Source: the human T2T-CHM13v2.0 reference genome, Homo sapiens. From it: a stretch of 64,000 bases of DNA. The notes below the pieces were generated by a model, which did not search any database, was not told where the DNA came from, and was given only the letters and a program-made list of their open reading frames with translations. Made by a program: the position numbers and the translations under genes. The stretch lies in NCBI RefSeq assembly GCF_009914755.1, contig NC_060933.1, one strand, 5' to 3'. Below, one piece after another: positions 3,381-55,750 of the stretch. The number at the start of each line of letters is the position of its first letter. Positions within the stretch are counted from its first letter, which is position 1.

Positions 3381-3854
3381 GTATCCTTTCCATTTATTTG
3401 GATTTCTTTTTTTGTTGTTGTTGTTGCCTCACTAAGATAAGAATGACTAACAGCTTTACTTCTTCCCGAGGTTATTTACATTTTAGACTACAACTTTGAA
3501 AAGTCTTAGCAGTGAAATTGTAATTGCTGGCTGAGTTAGGATGTTCTGTTATCTGCCTCACCATGACTAGATTGATTGAGTCATTCTTTTTTTTTTTTTT
3601 TTTTAATTTTCCGGTTAACATTTAGGCAAATGGCTCTGATGTATGTGATCCTCTCTCAAGGGCTTTGGTTTGGGGGCCATGAATATACTGCAGTTCCTCC
3701 CTCAGAAGACATCATCATTCGGTGAAGGAACCAAATATGAAAACACACAGTTCTGATATAACATGCAAAATGATATGTGCAGTGGGGTGGGGGCCTGGAG
3801 TAGACAGTGGTCAATTTTGTCTGGAGGACCTAGGGAGGCTGGAGTAATCATAAT

Positions 3855-4075
3855 GAATGATATCTACTATTAAGTATTTACTCTGCATCTACTTCAGTAG
3901 TCACTTTACATGCTTTTAAGCCTCACATTGACCCTTGAGTTCACTTACATCCTTTTTTGCAGATGGGGAAACTGAAGCTTCAAAAGCTTAAGGAATTTCT
4001 TAATAATGTCACACTGCTAATAATGACAGAGCTAGGATTTGAACCTGGTCTGTGTGACTCTAAAGTACAGGCATT
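3855..4075 (-). mobile_element. MIR SINE
   Basis: TTTGCAGATGGGGAAACTGAAGCT core and GAGCTAGGATTTGAACCTGGTCTGTGTGACTC. Confidence 0.75.
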
Positions 4076-7000
4076 TAATTTTTACTTTTGCCTATAGAAA
4101 GGAGCCTTGAAGAACAGAGGATTGCAAAGTAGAGCAAGAAAGGAGGAGGGCTTCAGGCAGAAAAGTGGGCCTGAGCAGAGGTGGCAGTGCACAGTGGTTC
4201 TAGGGAGTGGCAAGTAATGAAGTGTGGCCAGATTTCAGGTTGGTCTATGGCATTTGATGGTAGAATGGGGCATGAAGACAGGCAGGAGCCAGTGAAGAGC
4301 TGAAGGTGGCTGGAATCAGATACTATGCAGAACGCAAAGAAAGGAGGGTGGAACCCTGTGAGGCCACCAAAACTTGAAAGCAAGAGTTAAGTAAGGAGGG
4401 AAGTAAGAGTGGGGAAGAGAATAAACAAAACATAGCTTCCTGGAAGCTCAGGTCAGCACTTTAAAAGGCCCTGAGGAGTTAGCATTGGGGTGGGGGAAAA
4501 GCTGAGGGACTCAGCAGCAGGCTGTCACTGATGCCCTGGGGAAGAGTGCTGGATCCCGATCCCAAGGGACTAATTCTGGGTTGTGGAGTGAAGGGGAGGG
4601 AAACAGCGGCTTGTGGGGACCACTCTTTACAGAACCTTGACAGGAAAGAGAAGGAGAAGGAAGGATGAGGGAGTAACTTGATGAAGCGAGAGTCAGGGAG
4701 ACTCCCTCCCTTTTACAAAAAGATTGGTAAGGATTTGAGTGTTTTTGTAGGTTGTTAATGTAGATGAAGCAAAGTAATGAGCTGATTAAAAGCCCAGGTG
4801 CTGGAGTCAGAAAGACGTGGGTGCCGACGCTGGCTGCGCCACTTACCAATGGAAGCATTTGGCCGTAAGCCTTGGTTGCCCGTATATCTTTAGTCCTGTT
4901 ATAACTGCTGTGCGAGACTGTCATGAAGGTAAAATGAGATCGTAGTTGCACAGTAGGAGGCACTGGTGTGTAAGTAGCATTGGGTAAATGGTTACTACTA
5001 TTCTTTTTATTCTTACTTGAGAGGGGATGGATTCAAGGCCACAGGCATACGGTAAGGGTGGCTCCAGGTAGAGCTGTGTGGAGGTGAGTGGAAGGGGGTT
5101 GGGATGAGTTTTCAGTTGTTACCGAGTTAGGATGGGATTGAGGGTAAGGGGATGGGCGGGGTAGGATAAGAGAGTGTGACAAGGATGGTAAAGATGTGCC
5201 TTCACAGGGGAGCATCATAACTGAAGATAAGAAAAAGGCTGTGTTCCAGCAGTAAGGTCCTTGCTGAAGGTGTAATGTTAACACAGTGCCAGCTGCATGG
5301 CCATGTGGCTATATCCAGTGGCAGTTGGCAGCCTAGAGGGAGGAGTAGAGAACGTGGGAGGACCAATTTCATCCAAGGTTGGATGCAGGTTGGCAAGGTG
5401 GGTGGGTCCTACAGGAGGACAGTTGGAGGGTGGGTGCTGGAGCATTGGGAAGTACATTCCTCACTGAGGATTGTCACAGGGGCTCACCAGCCTGGACAAA
5501 GCAGGTCAAGGGATGAGAAACTTTAACAGGCTTAAAGATCAGATCTAGTGGAAATAGATACATGTACTGTGTAGGACAAGAGATTGTGTTTAGGGAGTTT
5601 TGTTTTGGGATTTCAGATATTAAAAGTGGTAAAATTCTAGGTGCTGACAGGATCTGGGTGGGAGCAGGTGTTGGAGGCCGTAGAGCAAGACAGGCTGTGG
5701 GATGACTTTCCTGGCGGGAGTGTGACAAGGAGGGCAGACCAGAAAGCCTGCTTGTCAGGGCGGGGGTGGGTGCTTAAGGTCGGGTTTTGTGTTCTCAGGA
5801 GGTTTGGCAATGGTATTACTTGGAGGAAGAAAGGTGTAGCGTGGACTGTCTTTTCAGAGGCCTCGAATAGCTTGAACAGTAAGTGGTGAAGGGCAGGGAG
5901 TAGGGTGGGCTGCAGAGCCATGTGTAGAGAGAGTGCTGGTTAAGATAGAAGCTCAAACTTGGGTTGCTGCCTGAAGTTCTTTTTAAGGATCATCAAAACC
6001 ACAGGAATACATAATAACAAAGCCTTCCTGGATTATGGTCTGTTCTCTGCATGGCTGTCCCCCAGCCCATGTAAGCGCCCAGCCTTGTGTGTACCAGGAG
6101 AGAACAGGCAAAAGGAGAAATGGTTCCTTTCCTAGGAGCCCCCAGGTTGATGCATAGTTACATTGCCCAGGTGACTTTCTAAGGTGATATTCAACTCTAG
6201 TATCCAAATCCGAGGAGCTGGAATAAGGTTAATTAGGTTACAAAGAAATGGAAATGCAATGTAACTAGGTGTGTGTTTTTGAAACCAAATGTGCCTTTTC
6301 TACTTGAATTCATTCTTATTAACAGATGCATTGTATTCCACCATATATAGAACCCAAAATCAAATCCTGTTGATGGCCATTGAGTTGTTTTTTGCTTTTC
6401 ACTGTTGCCAAATACACTGCGGTTAATGGCTTTAACCACAACATTTTTGGCAATGGTGAAAAAAAGTGTAATAAGTGTATAGGAATACACTTTCCAATAC
6501 ATTCCAATAAGTGTACAGGAATACACTTTCAGTACTATTTTGGGTTTGTCTGGGGGGTAGTTGTTTTTTTTCCTCCTTATTTGAGATGTGTTTCCTTAAT
6601 GCTGTATTGGCGGCCGTGAACTTTGTTTGGAATCCAGTCTCTGTAGTCTGGAAATGTGATTTCTGGCAGTGTGCTCTGTTTTGACACAATCTTGTCATAA
6701 CAACATGGGTTTCATCACAGTGGGGTCCCCCTTGTTCTCTCTGGGTGTGCAGATGGTCGTGTCCTTTGATGATGATGCTGGGAAATGGGGAAGGGCTTTC
6801 CAGGGGAGAACATAAAAGTTAAAAGAGCTGTAGTGCCGGGCACCTTGGGTGTAACTATGTTCCTCCCTGGCTTCTCCCTCTAATGTTCTTGGAACCTTCC
6901 CTGTGTAGAATCTGAGCCAGGAAGAGACTTGTGAGGTCCCAAGTTCCTCCCTCCCTGGAGGCAGGGGATAGGACATGGAAATCATCCCCAATATATCTCT

Positions 7001-7994
7001 GACTGGTTGAGGCTTCCTCCTGGCTCCCCAGGAGAGTTGACACAGTGCCCTTTCTCAGATCCCTGTCTGTTAACCAAACATTTCAGCCACTGCTCTGCAG
7101 AGCTGCCCATTTCACAAACACCTCAAAGGAATGTTGGTTTGAATGGAGATCGCCCTCTTCTCCAGTTTTGGAGCCTGGGAAAAAAGAGCTGCCTTTGGAA
7201 AAAGCTTGAGTTGGTTTTGTGGTTTTTTTCCTTGCAAGGCTGGTTGACTACTGGACTAAGCTTGGAGGTTGTATTTCCCATGGGAGGGCTCAGACTGGGA
7301 GAAAGAGGCCCACTCTCTTGTGTGCATTTGTGGTTTTAACTGAATTACTTCCAAAGTGCATCTTTTCCCTCTTGCATTCTACAAGATGACCTACCAGCCA
7401 GGGCCCAGAGGGAGCTGGTGTTGGTTCCTGCCAGCAGCTGTGACTACACAGTAGTTACCTTTTACTTAATGCCACCCACTCTTTCTCACCCCTGCCTTAT
7501 GTGGGGCGTAAGAGAAAGGAACATTCTGTTTTAGTTTTGCAGTGCTGTCCTAGGAGCTCATGATTTGGTACATGAGAATTAAGTGAAAAAGCTGGCAGTA
7601 AAGGGGGATAAGTTGGAATTCGTGGGATAATCTAGTTTCTTTTCCTTGACTGTAGGAAAGGTACTTTGAGAATCAAGCTCTCTCTCCACCTACTGTAACA
7701 TACACACACACCCCTCTTAGCTTTCTCTGACATGGAACATTGGGGAAGGGGAAGAGTGGGAGTCCCATATGGACTGTAGCTATGGACTTGTACATTGGTA
7801 TTGGTTCTTAATATGGTTTTCATAAATGGGCTTTAGGAGGTTCATAAACCTGAAAAATTTTCTGCAAGATTGTGAGTATATATGTTTCTCAGGAGAGGGT
7901 CCATAGCTTTCATCAGATTCTCAGAGAGTTCTCTGATTCTTGAAAGAATAAGAACCTCTGCTTGGGATTTGAATCTTGGATAAGTAATAAAGAA

Positions 7995-8215
7995 AAGCAA
8001 TAGCTGACATTTGTTGGGCTCCTACTACACACTAGGCATTAAGAGCTTTACATGCATTTTATTTCATTTGTGCCTCCAAACTCTGTGAGGAAAGTGTTAT
8101 GATTATCCTTCTTTTACTGATTAGGAAATGACAGCACAGAGAAGTTACCACAATTAACCTGGAGTGATGCAGCTTGCTGGAGCTTGGACTTGAACGGAGA
8201 TAATCTGATTCTAGA
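7995..8215 (-). mobile_element. MIR SINE
   Basis: Degenerate MIR core and tRNA-derived head (GGACTTGAAC...TCTGATTCTAGA). Confidence 0.65.
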
Positions 8216-10343
8216 ACTTGGGGGCTGTTAGCCATTCCTTAGTAGGACATCCATGCCAAGCCAGATGGTTCTAAGCAACTGGCTTTAAAGTTCCTTTGCC
8301 TTCTTCATTTCATTGCCTGAGTTCTAGTATAGGATTCTGTAGGCCCTGAATTCGTACTGTTTGTTAACCTTCGTGTTTTTGTATTGGGATGGGTGAGAGG
8401 AGGAAGATGCTTTTTGGGAGTCAGATCTGTTTAATTTTGAGCAAGTGTCTTAGTTTTTTTGTCTTAGTTGTCTTTAATGTAAGTCCTAGAACTCGGAGCC
8501 ATGGCCCTCAACACAGGGTTACTGTGAGCATAAAGTAAGGTGATAATAGATGTGAAAGAACTTTGGGAGCCGTGAGCTCTGTGGGATTATGTGCTAGGAT
8601 GGTGACATCTCTTGTGCTTTCCCGGGGACAGTGGGCAGCCTCAGACCTCAGAAGGACAGCACCTACTTGGTCCAAAGGGTATGAGATTCAGGACTGTTTG
8701 TCTAAGCTGTCTGTGGTCAAAAGTACATTCTGGACTGAAGAGATGGTGATGTAACTGGGCTGTGTGTGTATTGAAAAATCCCTCTTTGCTCTTTCCTCAT
8801 TTCAGGTTTGTCCTTTGAGTCAAGTTAAATATTTATTGAGCATTTCTGAGTACAAAAGTGGTGTATTGGAGAGTTGGGAGGGATTACAGAGGTAAAGCCC
8901 TTGCCCTTATAGAGTGTGTGGTCTCATTGAAGAGCAAGAACAAAATGTGCATATGTGAAGAGAGATGTATGGTAAGTTCAAGTGGAGCTAACACTTGGGT
9001 GCCGGCTGGAGGGTTTCAGGAGAGAGATTGGGACCTCGGGCTGGGAGAATGGGGCAAAGCAGCTCAGGTTGAGGAATTTGGTCAGTTTGGATGGGTGGAA
9101 GGAGTTGATGGTGCAGAGCTGAAGATGGACACAACTGAGCAGGCTGGGGGCTCTAACAACAAGATATGGGAGGATCAGGAGCCACCGAGAGACTGTCACC
9201 AGCATGAGGAAGATTGGTCTTTTAGTATGAAGTTCAGGATGGGTCAAAAAAGGGAGCTAGATACCAGATCAGGTCATGTATCGTCTCTGAGCACTTTGTT
9301 TCTGCAGTTCAGATGAAAATTAAATATGTTATTGTCAGCAGTTCTTGAACATTGGGCTGGATTGGGCAGATTATATACCTCGTTCTACCTGTTGGACTTG
9401 TCACGTGGGGTTTGTATCAGGGTAGTGGGAAGGTCACATGTTATTTCTCCATTTTTTTAGTTCCAAATATATAGCCATCTCTTGACCATACATTGCACAT
9501 TGAAGTGCTCAATACATACTTACTTTTTCTTTGACATGTGTGGTTGGGGAATGCCAGCTTCTGTTATAAAGTCTAGTTTTAGGCAATAATTTCCATTTCC
9601 TCAAGCACCAATCTTTTCACTTGAGTTACTAATATCTTCCTCCTTTCTTTTCTGGGGTGCCCTATTGTAGGAGTGCTAATTATCAATATTTTAACCATAA
9701 GGTAGCAGGTGTGAGGAGGCTGTGTTATCCACAAGTGGAGTAATTAATTCTTAAATAGTAGAAAATAGGCCCTGTAAATGAGAAAAACCTTTTTATATAT
9801 TTATAAATAGCAGCAACCATGTTCTTTCACTGAACTTTTTCTGCTTCTCCCATCAGCATACCAGGAGTCAGATTGGGATCGCCCAGGTCCTGTGTGGTGT
9901 CTGTTCTGGGCTTAGGTTCTTAAGAGAGAGACTCATTGGCTACAGCAGTGGGAATGGACAGAGAATAGAAAGTGTTCTTAGGTGTTGTACTTCAGAGGGA
10001 GCCTGGATCATGACCCGCAGAGAGGCAGGTGTCTTTACACCTTCCAAAATTGACTTGAACCATTTCTAGGGGAAGCGTGTGGGTAGGAAGTCAGGGGGTG
10101 GGGTTGAGGACCTCCAGCTTTATACTTTCCACTGTCTCTATTGTTTGGGTGTTTTTGCCATGACCTTTTATAATAATGAAAAAAATTTAATTATGGTACT
10201 AATTCAGTAAATTCAGTTGGAAAACAATAGATTTGGAAGTCCCAGTTTGTTACTACAGTTCCACAAATACTTGCCAGCTTTATAACTGATTTTTCTCTGT
10301 CCTGGAATTCAAGCAGAATGACATCCTTAACTCCAGGCTGCAG

Positions 10344-10469
10344 GTACTCTGTACGTGTGTCACCTCAGATGGCGAACCGGATTGTGGATTCTGCAAGGAG
10401 CATCCTCAACAAGTTCATACCTGATATCTATATTTACACAGATCACATGAAAGGAGTCAACTCTGGGAA
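10344..10469 (+). CDS. RCL1: RCL1 exon 6, YSVRVSPQMANRIVDSARSILNKFIPDIYIYTDHMKGVNSG(K)
   Basis: GC+G gives Ala in frame with exon 5; AA|gtaagt donor; 126 nt, phase 2/2. Confidence 0.96.
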
Positions 10470-19422: not shown

Positions 19423-19501
19423 ACTGTCCTTTTTCGGTTATCATGGTACCGATGCTGTATATCTGAAAGGTACAGTACTGTGATAACTGAAGAATGGTGG
19501 T
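19423..19501 (+). ncRNA. MIR101-2: Intronic pre-miR-101-2 hairpin; miR-101-3p at 19471-19491, 5p arm at 19434-19455
   Basis: Contains mature TACAGTACTGTGATAACTGAA pairing with TCGGTTATCATGGTACCGATGC; MIR101-2 is known to lie in the last RCL1 intron. Confidence 0.97.

Positions 19502-55109: not shown

Positions 55110-55750
<641 letters not shown>

What the first reader, a model, noticed from the sequence alone, without database searches (positions are those of the whole stretch)
10281..10347. Dual-spliceosome acceptor at exon 6: a U2 3'ss and in-frame ATG overlie the U12 branch point, predicting a 187-aa RCL1
Seen: upstream of the U12 branch site is a complete U2-type acceptor: branch-like ACTGAT (10285-10290), pyrimidine tract TTTTTCTCTGTCCT and tandem AAG/CAG (10311-10316). 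These AGs lie 30 and 27 nt upstream of the U12 acceptor, so both keep its phase. Immediately after is ATG ACA TCC TTA ACT CCA GGC TGC AGG TAC (10318-10347), so the U12 branch site TCCTTAAC would be exonic and translated (MTSLTPGCR) in frame with exon 6. With exons 6-9 (178 codons) this gives 187 aa lacking the N-terminal half. Inference: the major spliceosome could enter exon 6 without the minor spliceosome, a twintron-like arrangement. I vaguely recall a short annotated RCL1 isoform of about this size but cannot verify it.
Basis: partly seen in the sequence, partly recalled or inferred. Interest (0 to 1): 0.7.

Follow-up and report, generated by a model that had tools for sequence, protein, structure and literature searches.

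The report
RCL1 short-isoform acceptor beside U12 site
A major-spliceosome acceptor lies 30 bases ahead of the minor-spliceosome acceptor of RCL1 exon 6; an already annotated transcript from a promoter inside that intron uses it, dominates in liver, and could encode a 187-residue half-protein of unknown function.

Summary
RCL1 intron 5 (3381-10343) is a textbook U12-type GT-AG intron. Thirty bases upstream of its acceptor lie a U2-type branch site, a pyrimidine tract and AAG/CAG, followed by an in-frame ATG at 10318.

The feature is real but already known. The hub's RefSeq table lists another RCL1 transcript with exons 8880-8971 and 10314-10469. That defines a U2-type intron (8972-10313, GTAAGT...AAG) nested in the U12 intron.

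- A paper on SwissProt isoforms describes an RCL1 alternative-first-exon isoform lacking 186 N-terminal residues (373-186=187).
- Supplementary tables of Olthof 2019 show 'cryptic 3'ss extending the downstream exon' and 'exon inside the minor intron' at 97% of junction reads in human liver. Testis is 24-41%, and the second event is 75% in mouse liver.
- Predicted orthologous isoforms exist in pig, a bat, bovids and gerbils.

Entry to exon 6 without the minor spliceosome is driven by an intronic, liver-enriched promoter, and competition on one pre-mRNA has not been shown.

Translation of the 187-aa protein is unproven, because four upstream ATGs precede its start. RCL1 is absent from published twintron lists, so the only new element is filing it there.

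The parts
3381..10343 (+). RCL1 intron 5, a U12-type GT-AG intron of 6963 nt
   Evidence: Donor GGC|GTATCCTTT. Branch site TCCTTAAC with its branch A 13 nt from the acceptor. Listed as a minor intron with human 5'ss score 87.3 and branch-site score 84.2 in Olthof 2019 file 1. ZRSR2 CLIP peak over the 3' end. Retained in RNU4ATAC patients.
3381..3389 (+). U12-type 5' splice site GTATCCTTT, preceded by GC at -2/-1
   Evidence: Only copy in the window. The absence of AG or G at -2/-1 fits the rule reported by Kwon 2023 (abstract; section 16).
8581..8971 (+). Conserved intronic promoter and first-exon region
   Evidence: tblastn of the N-terminal extensions of predicted isoforms against the window: Oryx 8581-8724 (E 4e-13), Ovis 8641-8724 (E 1e-10), Meriones 8749-8883 (E 4e-15) and 8915-8953. 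GC 0.41-0.51, so not a CpG island.
8880..8971 (+). Alternative first exon of another RefSeq RCL1 transcript
   Evidence: Hub annotation table. The dinucleotide before 8880 is GA, so there is no acceptor and it is a first exon.
8945..8947 (+). First of four upstream ATGs; opens a 45-codon uORF in another frame that overlaps the 10318 ATG
   Evidence: In gerbil predicted isoforms the homologous ATG is the start codon and is in frame with exon 6.
8972..10313 (+). U2-type GT-AG intron (1342 nt) nested inside the U12 intron
   Evidence: Follows from the annotated exons 8880-8971 and 10314-10469. Donor ATG|GTAAGT.
10285..10290 (+). U2 branch-site-like CTGAT; branch A at 10289, 24 nt before the AAG
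   Evidence: it is one of two yUnAy matches in 10240-10305.
10290..10303 (+). Pyrimidine tract TTTTTCTCTGTCCT
   Evidence: The 20 nt before the AAG are 75% pyrimidine, which puts it in the top 6.2% of 4857 AGs.
10311..10316 (+). Tandem AAG/CAG acceptor; the annotated exon starts after the AAG, at 10314
   Evidence: Hub table. Bovid isoforms read ..S/P-R-M.., which fits a junction after the AAG (inference).
10314..10469 (+). Exon 6 extended by 30 nt at its 5' end
   Evidence: Hub table. Olthof 2019 category CAT8 for human RCL1.
10318..10320 (+). ATG opening the 187-codon ORF (context AGAATGA, A at -3)
   Evidence: A pig UniRef protein of 187 aa starts at the same position.
10324..10331 (+). U12 branch site TCCTTAAC, which is exonic and coding (S-L-T) in the short transcript
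10342..10343 (+). AG of the U12-type 3' splice site
   Evidence: and the hub table (exon 6 starts at 10344).

Best explanation
RCL1 intron 5 is a minor (U12-type) intron that contains a second, tissue-restricted promoter at about 8.6-8.9 kb in the window.

Transcripts from that promoter start with exon 8880-8971, whose donor is a strong U2-type GTAAGT. No U12-type donor lies downstream of this start. Their U12 branch site and acceptor therefore have no partner, because the minor spliceosome recognises donor and branch site together (established knowledge). These transcripts use a separate U2-type acceptor instead: branch CTGAT, a pyrimidine tract and the first AG, which is the AAG at 10311-10313. 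This joins the first exon to a version of exon 6 that is 30 nt longer.

The U12 branch site thus becomes exon sequence. The ATG at 10318 opens a 187-codon frame that continues into exons 6-9. That frame covers most of the RTC insert domain plus the C-terminal segment and lacks the N-terminal 186 residues.

- Shown: the sequence elements, the annotated exons, use of the junction class at about 97% in human liver, and U12 dependence of the full-length junction.
- Inferred: the choice is made by promoter use and not by spliceosome competition, the promoter is liver-specific, and the 187-aa protein is made.
For: - **Sequence elements:**. No RTATCC motif lies between 8880 and 10343.
- **Annotation:** the hub's RefSeq table lists exons 8880-8971 and 10314-10469 for other RCL1 transcripts.
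- **Short isoform in print:** PMC12442299 (passage read) describes an alternative-first-exon event that removes 186 N-terminal residues of RCL1.
- **Human junction usage:** Olthof 2019 (PMC6717393) supplementary file 6 gives human RCL1 CAT8 as liver 0.966, testis 0.243, kidney 0.071, bone marrow 0.007 and 0 in four other tissues. CAT9 is liver 0.970, testis 0.411 and kidney 0.166 (category definitions).
- **Mouse:** Rcl1 CAT9 is 0.745 in liver and at most 0.09 in ten other tissues.
- **Gene expression:** gene-level expression is highest in liver in both species, at 90 versus 2.6-23.7 in human.
- **Mouse liver long reads:** Rcl1 expresses an oscillating and a non-oscillating CDS at similar levels (PMC13076092, passage).
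- **Liver cancer:** RCL1 is listed as an alternative-promoter event in hepatocellular carcinoma (PMC13702749, passage).
- **Conservation:** a 187-aa pig protein (representative of a cluster of 19) and a Myotis protein start MTPLT.. at the same position. Bovid and gerbil predicted isoforms carry N-terminal extensions homologous to window 8581-8971.
- **Domains:** the exon 6 piece matches RTC_insert positions 12-54 of 102, exon 7 matches 57-101, exon 8 matches RTC 172-202 of 221, and exon 5 matches RTC 144-171.
Against: - The tables I could read give event categories, not junction coordinates. That the liver reads are exactly 8971>10314 is therefore inferred from the annotation.
- Four ATGs precede 10318 in the RefSeq first exon. 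Two of them open 45- and 37-codon uORFs in another frame that run past 10318 and end in exon 6, upstream of three exon junctions. Translation of the 187-aa frame would need leaky scanning, and the mRNA could be a target of nonsense-mediated decay.
- I saw no mass-spectrometry or ribosome-profiling evidence.
- The start codon is not uniformly kept. Gerbil models start at the homologue of the human uATG in a frame that differs by one base. Cat and lion models have D at that position and read through the intron.
- The orthologous proteins are gene models, not experiments.
- An HNF1-like site at 8824 is at chance level, with 29 found against 30.7 expected. I have no sequence evidence for liver-specific control.
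- The mouse table lists CAT9 only, not CAT8.
Confidence: 0.85

Rival explanations
1. True spliceosome competition. On the full-length pre-mRNA the major spliceosome uses the 10313 or 10316 acceptor with exon 5, a cryptic donor near it, or exon 4. This would happen especially when the minor spliceosome is limiting, and would give a +30 or +27 nt in-frame insertion or a frameshift.
For: - An exon 5>10314 join would keep the reading frame.
- By Olthof 2019's method text, a cryptic-site category is seeded by reads that map to one flanking exon and to a cryptic site at the other exon. The human CAT8 call therefore may imply that some exon 5>extended exon 6 reads exist.
- Nested U2/U12 introns with competition are known, for example prospero and SRSF10 (review PMC8329584).
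Against: - The exon 5 donor GGC|GTATCC is a poor U1 site. It has the non-AG, non-G exonic flank that Kwon 2023 link to avoidance of the major spliceosome.
- In RNU4ATAC patient data the only RCL1 events listed are intron retention: delta-PSI 0.14 in LCL and 0.006 in fibroblasts, and retention of 0.33-0.70 in patients.
- Exon 4>10314 would shift the frame (my reading of the frames).
- RCL1 appears in Kwon 2023's ZRSR2-bound list but nowhere else in the supplement held for that paper.
- The liver-only pattern fits a promoter better than a splicing switch.
Confidence: 0.1
2. The short transcript is real but not protein-coding in practice. It would be a uORF-laden by-product of an intronic liver enhancer or promoter, or a regulatory RNA, and the 187-aa frame is an annotation artefact of picking the longest ORF.
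For: - Four upstream ATGs and two overlapping uORFs precede the start.
- The start codon shifts between lineages.
- The product lacks 186 of 373 residues and the first 11 or so positions of the insert-domain profile.
- The liver-cancer study of RCL1 that I searched does not mention isoforms, with 0 occurrences of the word.
Against: - An open frame into exon 6 is kept in primate-like, pig, bat, bovid and gerbil models, by different start codons.
- The transcript is abundant in liver, which is unexpected for an efficient decay target.
- PMC12442299 presents the RCL1 isoform as an example among its surface-charge outliers, in a section whose figure legend names the SwissProt dataset of high and confident prediction quality.
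Confidence: 0.35
3. Chance pseudo-acceptor: the U2-like signals and the ATG are coincidental and unused.
For: On my crude criteria 69 AGs in the window look equally good, 4 of them inside this intron.
Against: The exon is annotated as starting at 10314 (hub table). The junction class is at 97% in liver. The peptide is conserved in predicted orthologues.
Confidence: 0.01

Closest known systems
Nested U2-in-U12 introns ('twintrons'): Drosophila prospero, and human HNRNPLL, ZNF207 and C1orf112 (Janice 2013, PMC3564746; review PMC8329584)
   Same: A U2-type intron lies inside a U12-type intron with separate 5' and 3' sites, and both products are annotated. The external U12 intron is the conserved one.
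   Different: In RCL1 the U2 donor belongs to an alternative first exon, so the two introns are probably removed from different primary transcripts. RCL1 is not among the 18 human genes in Janice's Table 1, nor among the examples in the review passages I read.
Cryptic exon inside a minor intron, for example Tmem87b exon 11a (Olthof 2019, PMC6717393)
   Same: It falls in the same category (CAT9) in the same data set. Use is tissue-dependent, and the intronic exon is never joined to the exon that carries the U12 donor.
   Different: Tmem87b exon 11a is an internal exon reached by skipping exon 11. The RCL1 exon has no acceptor and is a first exon.
Dual-type 3' splice sites: CENATAC, DRAM2, PFDN5, KANSL2 (Kwon 2023, PMC10853781)
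   Same: One downstream exon is reached by both spliceosomes.
   Different: In those genes the same AG serves both machineries. In RCL1 the two acceptors are 30 nt apart, each with its own branch site. RCL1 is listed only as ZRSR2-bound.
NAGNAG tandem acceptors
   Same: AAGCAG at 10311-10316 has the motif.
   Different: Only the upstream AG is annotated. The 3-nt choice falls in the 5' UTR of the short transcript, so it would not change the protein. Use of the CAG was not testable here. The family description is recalled and comes from no call.

Membership tests
U12-type (minor) intron, GT-AG subtype | 5' splice site matching RTATCCTT | tested here: met
   GTATCCTTT at 3381; it is the only copy in the window.
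U12-type (minor) intron, GT-AG subtype | Branch site TCCTTRAY close to the acceptor (about 10-15 nt) | tested here: met
   TCCTTAAC at 10324-10331, with the branch A 13 nt from the last intron base.
U12-type (minor) intron, GT-AG subtype | Dependence on minor-spliceosome components | not testable with these tools
   Literature only. ZRSR2 CLIP peak at hg19 chr9:4841207-4841256. Retention is raised in RNU4ATAC patients.
U2-type GT-AG intron (8972-10313) | GTRAGT-like donor, yUnAy branch 18-40 nt upstream of the acceptor, pyrimidine tract, and first AG after the branch | tested here: met
   ATG|GTAAGT. CTGAT with its A at 10289. The tract is 75% pyrimidine. There is no AG between 10289 and 10312.
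U2-type GT-AG intron (8972-10313) | The junction is actually used | not testable with these tools
   Hub RefSeq table, plus the published CAT8 and CAT9 values. Junction coordinates are not given in those tables.
Twintron as defined by Janice 2013 | [quoted passage not shown] | tested here: met
   8972-10313 lies inside 3381-10343, and both are annotated (hub table).
Twintron as defined by Janice 2013 | The two spliceosomes compete for the same RNA molecule | tested here: inconclusive
   The U2 donor sits in a first exon with no acceptor. Patient data list retention only. Nested removal of 8972-10313 from the full-length pre-mRNA is not excluded.
Twintron as defined by Janice 2013 | Conservation of both splice-site sets across vertebrates | tested here: inconclusive
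   The mouse 5'ss and branch site are kept. Predicted isoforms through the extended exon exist in pig, a bat, bovids and gerbils. No genome alignments were available.
Dual-type 3' splice site | The same AG is joined to both U2-type and U12-type donors | tested here: not met
   In human the acceptors are 30 nt apart.
RTC / RCL1 protein family (the 187-aa product) | Complete RTC domain (PF01137) interrupted by RTC_insert (PF05189) | tested here: not met
   Only RTC_insert positions 12-101 of 102 and RTC positions from about 172 of 221 are encoded by exons 6-8. RTC positions up to 171 lie in exon 5 and upstream.

The most novel reading that the evidence does not exclude
In hepatocytes the main product of the RCL1 locus would not be the ribosome-biogenesis factor. 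It would be a minor-spliceosome-independent short isoform from a mammal-wide intronic promoter, made possible by a dedicated U2 acceptor just upstream of the U12 branch site. This half-protein (insert domain plus C-terminal segment) would have its own liver function. The 'high RCL1 in liver, low in hepatocellular carcinoma' literature would then really be tracking this isoform.

A further untested twist: on full-length pre-mRNA the nested U2 intron may be removed first, shortening the 7-kb minor intron without destroying its branch site.
Probability: 0.2. Interest if true: 0.55.

Novelty: already known. Interest (0 to 1): 0.3.

Why it matters
- **Studies of RCL1 abundance.** If about 97% of liver junction reads into exon 6 bypass the minor intron, bulk RCL1 expression in liver mostly reports a transcript that cannot encode the full-length 18S-processing factor. 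This affects liver, liver-cancer and circadian studies that treat RCL1 as one gene product. The liver-cancer paper I searched never mentions isoforms.
- **Minor-splicing research.** This is a clean natural case of a gene segment being expressed independently of the minor spliceosome by pairing an intronic promoter with its own U2 acceptor. It is also a reminder that 'alternative splicing around minor introns' can really be promoter choice.
- **Limits.** None of this changes current understanding of either spliceosome.

Tried and rejected
- **Text searches:** 'RCL1' with 'minor intron' found 0 papers. 'RCL1' with 'U12' found 6; I opened only Chang 2007 (PMC1874599), which lists RCL1 among U12-intron genes. 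'RCL1' with 'liver' and 'alternative promoter' found 4, of which 3 were listed. I opened one of these, which names an RCL1 alternative-promoter event. 'minor intron' with 'alternative promoter' found 23, of which 15 were listed. None of the listed titles or abstract openings is about promoters inside minor introns.
- **Psychiatric genetics paper:** Brownstein 2021 only mentions 'additional RCL1 isoforms' in a figure legend.
- **HNF1 site upstream of the first exon:** the match at 8824 has 3 mismatches and is at chance level, with 29 found against 30.7 expected.
- **Processed pseudogene as a record of the short mRNA:** the only other genomic match, on contig 17 at about 73% identity, runs straight across the exon 5/6 junction. 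It derives from the canonical mRNA and is uninformative.
- **Seal predicted isoforms:** these join an exon homologous to window 9467-9583 at the canonical exon 6 start. The human sequence has no GT after that stretch, so this exon is not usable in human.
- **Cat and lion models:** their N-terminal matches to the window are weak and scattered (E 0.012-0.85). For the cat they lie in successive intron stretches up to the acceptor, which I read as transcription straight through the intron. They say nothing about the acceptor.
- **Structure prediction:** not run. The spliced human protein is a joined sequence that I did not type into any tool, and a confident fold of a fragment would not show that it exists.
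Full report
**The observation**

ACTGAT is at 10285-10290, the pyrimidine tract at 10290-10303, AAG at 10311-10313 and CAG at 10314-10316. The ATG is at 10318-10320, TCCTTAAC at 10324-10331 and the acceptor AG at 10342-10343.

Exon 5 ends GGC|GTATCCTTT. GTATCCTTT and TCCTTAAC each occur once in the 64-kb window. Shuffled sequence gives 0.59 and 3.08 copies on average, so the counts alone are not unusual. What matters is that the single copies sit exactly at the annotated donor and 13 nt before the annotated acceptor. Intron 5 (3381-10343, 6963 nt) is therefore a U12-type GT-AG intron.

Published evidence agrees with this:
- Chang 2007 lists RCL1 among U12-intron genes (PMC1874599, passage).
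- Olthof 2019 supplementary file 1 gives human 5'ss and branch-site scores of 87.3 and 84.2, and the same motifs in mouse.
- Kwon 2023 Table S4 has a ZRSR2 CLIP site over the 3' end.
- The intron is retained in RNU4ATAC-mutant cells (Cologne 2019 supplements; Olthof 2021 Dataset S4).

**Is the U2 acceptor more than chance?**

On sequence alone the answer is only modestly yes. The 20 nt before the AAG are 75% pyrimidine, which is in the top 6.2% of 4857 AGs. A stricter crude test asks for at least 75% pyrimidine, a yUnAy branch 18-40 nt upstream and no intervening AG. Of 4855 AGs, 69 pass. 10313 passes and 10316 does not. Only 2 of the 6 annotated acceptors pass, so the test is insensitive. The AAG is the first AG after the branch A at 10289.

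**What is really there**

The hub's RefSeq table lists, for other RCL1 transcripts, exons 8880-8971 and 10314-10469. The first of these is preceded by GA, so it has no acceptor. It is followed by ATG|GTAAGT, a strong U2-type donor. The annotated structure is therefore a 1342-nt U2-type intron (8972-10313) nested in the U12 intron, belonging to a transcript that starts inside the intron.

No RTATCC motif lies between 8880 and 10343. Such a transcript therefore has no U12-type donor to pair with the U12 branch site. This explains why it needs its own acceptor upstream.

Joining 8880-8971, 10314-10469 and exons 7-9 gives an mRNA in which the fifth ATG (10318, A at -3) opens a 187-codon frame. The U12 branch site is then translated as S-L-T.

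**The short isoform is already in print**

PMC12442299 (passage read) describes an RCL1 isoform in which an alternative-first-exon event removes 186 N-terminal residues. Full length is 373 residues (PDB chain 7mq8_SH), so the isoform is 187 residues.

**The junction is used, and heavily**

Olthof 2019 (PMC6717393), supplementary file 6, gives these values as a fraction of junction reads. Column order was checked and category definitions come from the text and methods.

| Event | Liver | Testis | Kidney | Bone marrow | Other tissues |
|---|---|---|---|---|---|
| Human CAT8 (cryptic 3' splice site extending the downstream exon) | 0.966 | 0.243 | 0.071 | 0.007 | 0 in four |
| Mouse Rcl1 CAT9 | 0.745 | 0 | 0 | 0.079 | at most 0.09 in seven |

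The tables give categories, not coordinates. Equating the reads with 8971>10314 is therefore my inference from the annotation. Mouse has no CAT8 row.

Other observations fit a liver promoter:
- Gene-level expression is highest in liver in both species, at 90 versus 2.6-23.7 in human and 36.7 versus 1.8-21.1 in mouse.
- Mouse liver long reads show that Rcl1 expresses an oscillating and a non-oscillating CDS at similar levels (PMC13076092, passage).
- A liver-cancer study lists RCL1 as an alternative-promoter event (PMC13702749, passage).

**Conservation**

A search with the first 50 residues of the short frame, restricted to longer proteins, returned 260 proteins at E <= 0.001 among 269 candidates, of which 120 were listed. 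I fetched 22, chosen for short length or full query coverage. I dropped four that carry the canonical exon 5/6 junction (P0046, P0053, P0090, P0104), which leaves 18 tabulated.

- **Same start, mammal-like (5 of 18).** These have M-T-(S/P)-L-T at the human position: a 187-aa pig UniRef entry that represents a cluster of 19, a Myotis entry, Oryx and Ovis isoforms, and one unnamed protein.
- **Same position, different residues (4 of 18).** One barn-owl partial model and three unnamed proteins have M at the same position followed by different residues.
- **Gerbils (2 of 18).** These start at the homologue of the human upstream ATG (8945). They reach exon 6 in a frame that differs by one base after the branch site.
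- **Felids (2 of 18).** The felid N-terminal matches to the window are weak and scattered.
- **Seals (2 of 18).** These use a different intronic exon.
- **Uninformative (3 of 18).**

The bovid N-terminal extensions align to window 8581-8724 (E 4e-13 and 1e-10). The gerbil extension aligns to 8749-8883 (E 4e-15) and 8915-8953. The promoter and first-exon region is therefore conserved across several mammalian orders.

The bovid proteins read ..S-R-M.. and ..P-R-M.., which fits a junction after the AAG. This is an inference.

All of these are gene models. The constant nine-residue spacing is also what the U12 branch-to-acceptor constraint alone would give, so it is not independent evidence for coding selection.

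**What the protein would be**

The exon 6 piece matches Pfam RTC_insert positions 12-54 of 102 and exon 7 matches 57-101. Exon 8 matches RTC positions 172-202 of 221, below the curated cut-off (14.7 against 27 bits, E 0.018). Exon 5 matches RTC 144-171, also below the cut-off (20.2 against 27 bits, E 0.00037).

The short product would therefore keep most of the insert domain, minus its first 11 or so profile positions, plus the C-terminal segment. It would lack the N-terminal 186 residues.

There are reasons to doubt that it is made. Four upstream ATGs sit in the RefSeq first exon. Two of them open 45- and 37-codon uORFs in another frame that overlap 10318 and end in exon 6, upstream of three junctions. 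I found no proteomic or ribosome-profiling evidence.

**Mechanism and rivals**

- **Best reading (0.85).** Promoter choice decides. The intronic promoter yields a pre-mRNA that only the major spliceosome can process into exon 6, through its own acceptor.
The exon 5 donor has the non-AG, non-G flank that Kwon 2023 associate with avoiding the major spliceosome. The RCL1 rows found in the held supplements of two RNU4ATAC patient studies concern intron retention, the list of U12-type introns and gene expression. Olthof's method seeds cryptic-site categories from reads that touch a flanking exon, so rare exon 5>extended exon 6 reads may exist in human.
- **Transcript real but not productively translated (about 0.35).** This is a separate open question, and it is compatible with the architecture above.
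- **Chance pseudo-acceptor.** This is excluded.

**Comparison with what is known**

Positionally this is a nested U2-in-U12 arrangement, as in prospero, HNRNPLL, ZNF207 and C1orf112 (PMC3564746, whole text read; review PMC8329584, passages). RCL1 is not among the 18 genes in Janice's Table 1. It is also not named in the review passages I read.

It differs from those cases because the U2 donor belongs to a first exon. [quoted passage not shown]

**Verdict**

What has gone unremarked, in the literature I could search, is that RCL1 belongs with the nested U2/U12 introns. The bypass isoform also dominates in liver in human and mouse.

**Limits**

- No vertebrate genome alignment was available.
- I could not see RefSeq CDS lines for the other transcripts.
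- File 4 of the Cologne 2019 supplements could not be searched, and held supplements may be truncated.
- bioRxiv supplements are closed.

Noticed in passing
window 8749-8883 and 8581-8724: Translated comparison shows that intron sequence upstream of the human RefSeq first exon is conserved with the coding first exons of gerbil and bovid predicted isoforms. The human frame has a stop at about 8752. The real human start site may lie further upstream than 8880.
   Followed up: partly
window 8781-8805: A strong-looking U2 acceptor (a long pyrimidine tract ending in a CAG) lies 75 nt upstream of the RefSeq first exon. The gerbil model reads straight through the homologous stretch, so it is probably not used as an acceptor.
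   Followed up: partly
window 8800-8980: From memory, the first-exon region and its GTAAGT donor resemble an old antisense MIR-type repeat. No repeat library was available to test this.
   Followed up: no
L002 (own genome, contig 17, 30717480-30720592, minus strand): A processed pseudogene of RCL1 at about 73% identity. It is contiguous across exons 4-9 of the canonical mRNA, including the U12-spliced exon 5/6 junction.
   Followed up: yes
window 9467-9583: This stretch is homologous to an intronic exon that seal predicted isoforms (one a cluster of 106 members) join at the canonical exon 6 start. If real, the U12 acceptor would serve as a dual-type site in those species. The human sequence lacks a GT donor here.
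   Followed up: partly
window 10335-10336: An AG lies only 5-6 nt after the U12 branch A. It is too close to be used by the minor spliceosome (established knowledge) and it is out of frame.
   Followed up: no
window 19425-19499: mir-101 precursor (Rfam RF00253, 96.3 bits), matching the annotated MIR101-2.
   Followed up: yes
window 55473-55620: A match to Metazoa_SRP at exactly the gathering score (70.3 bits against 70). The stretch is 148 bases against a 299-position model and lies in a repeat-masked region, so it is most likely an Alu-type element and not an SRP RNA gene.
   Followed up: no
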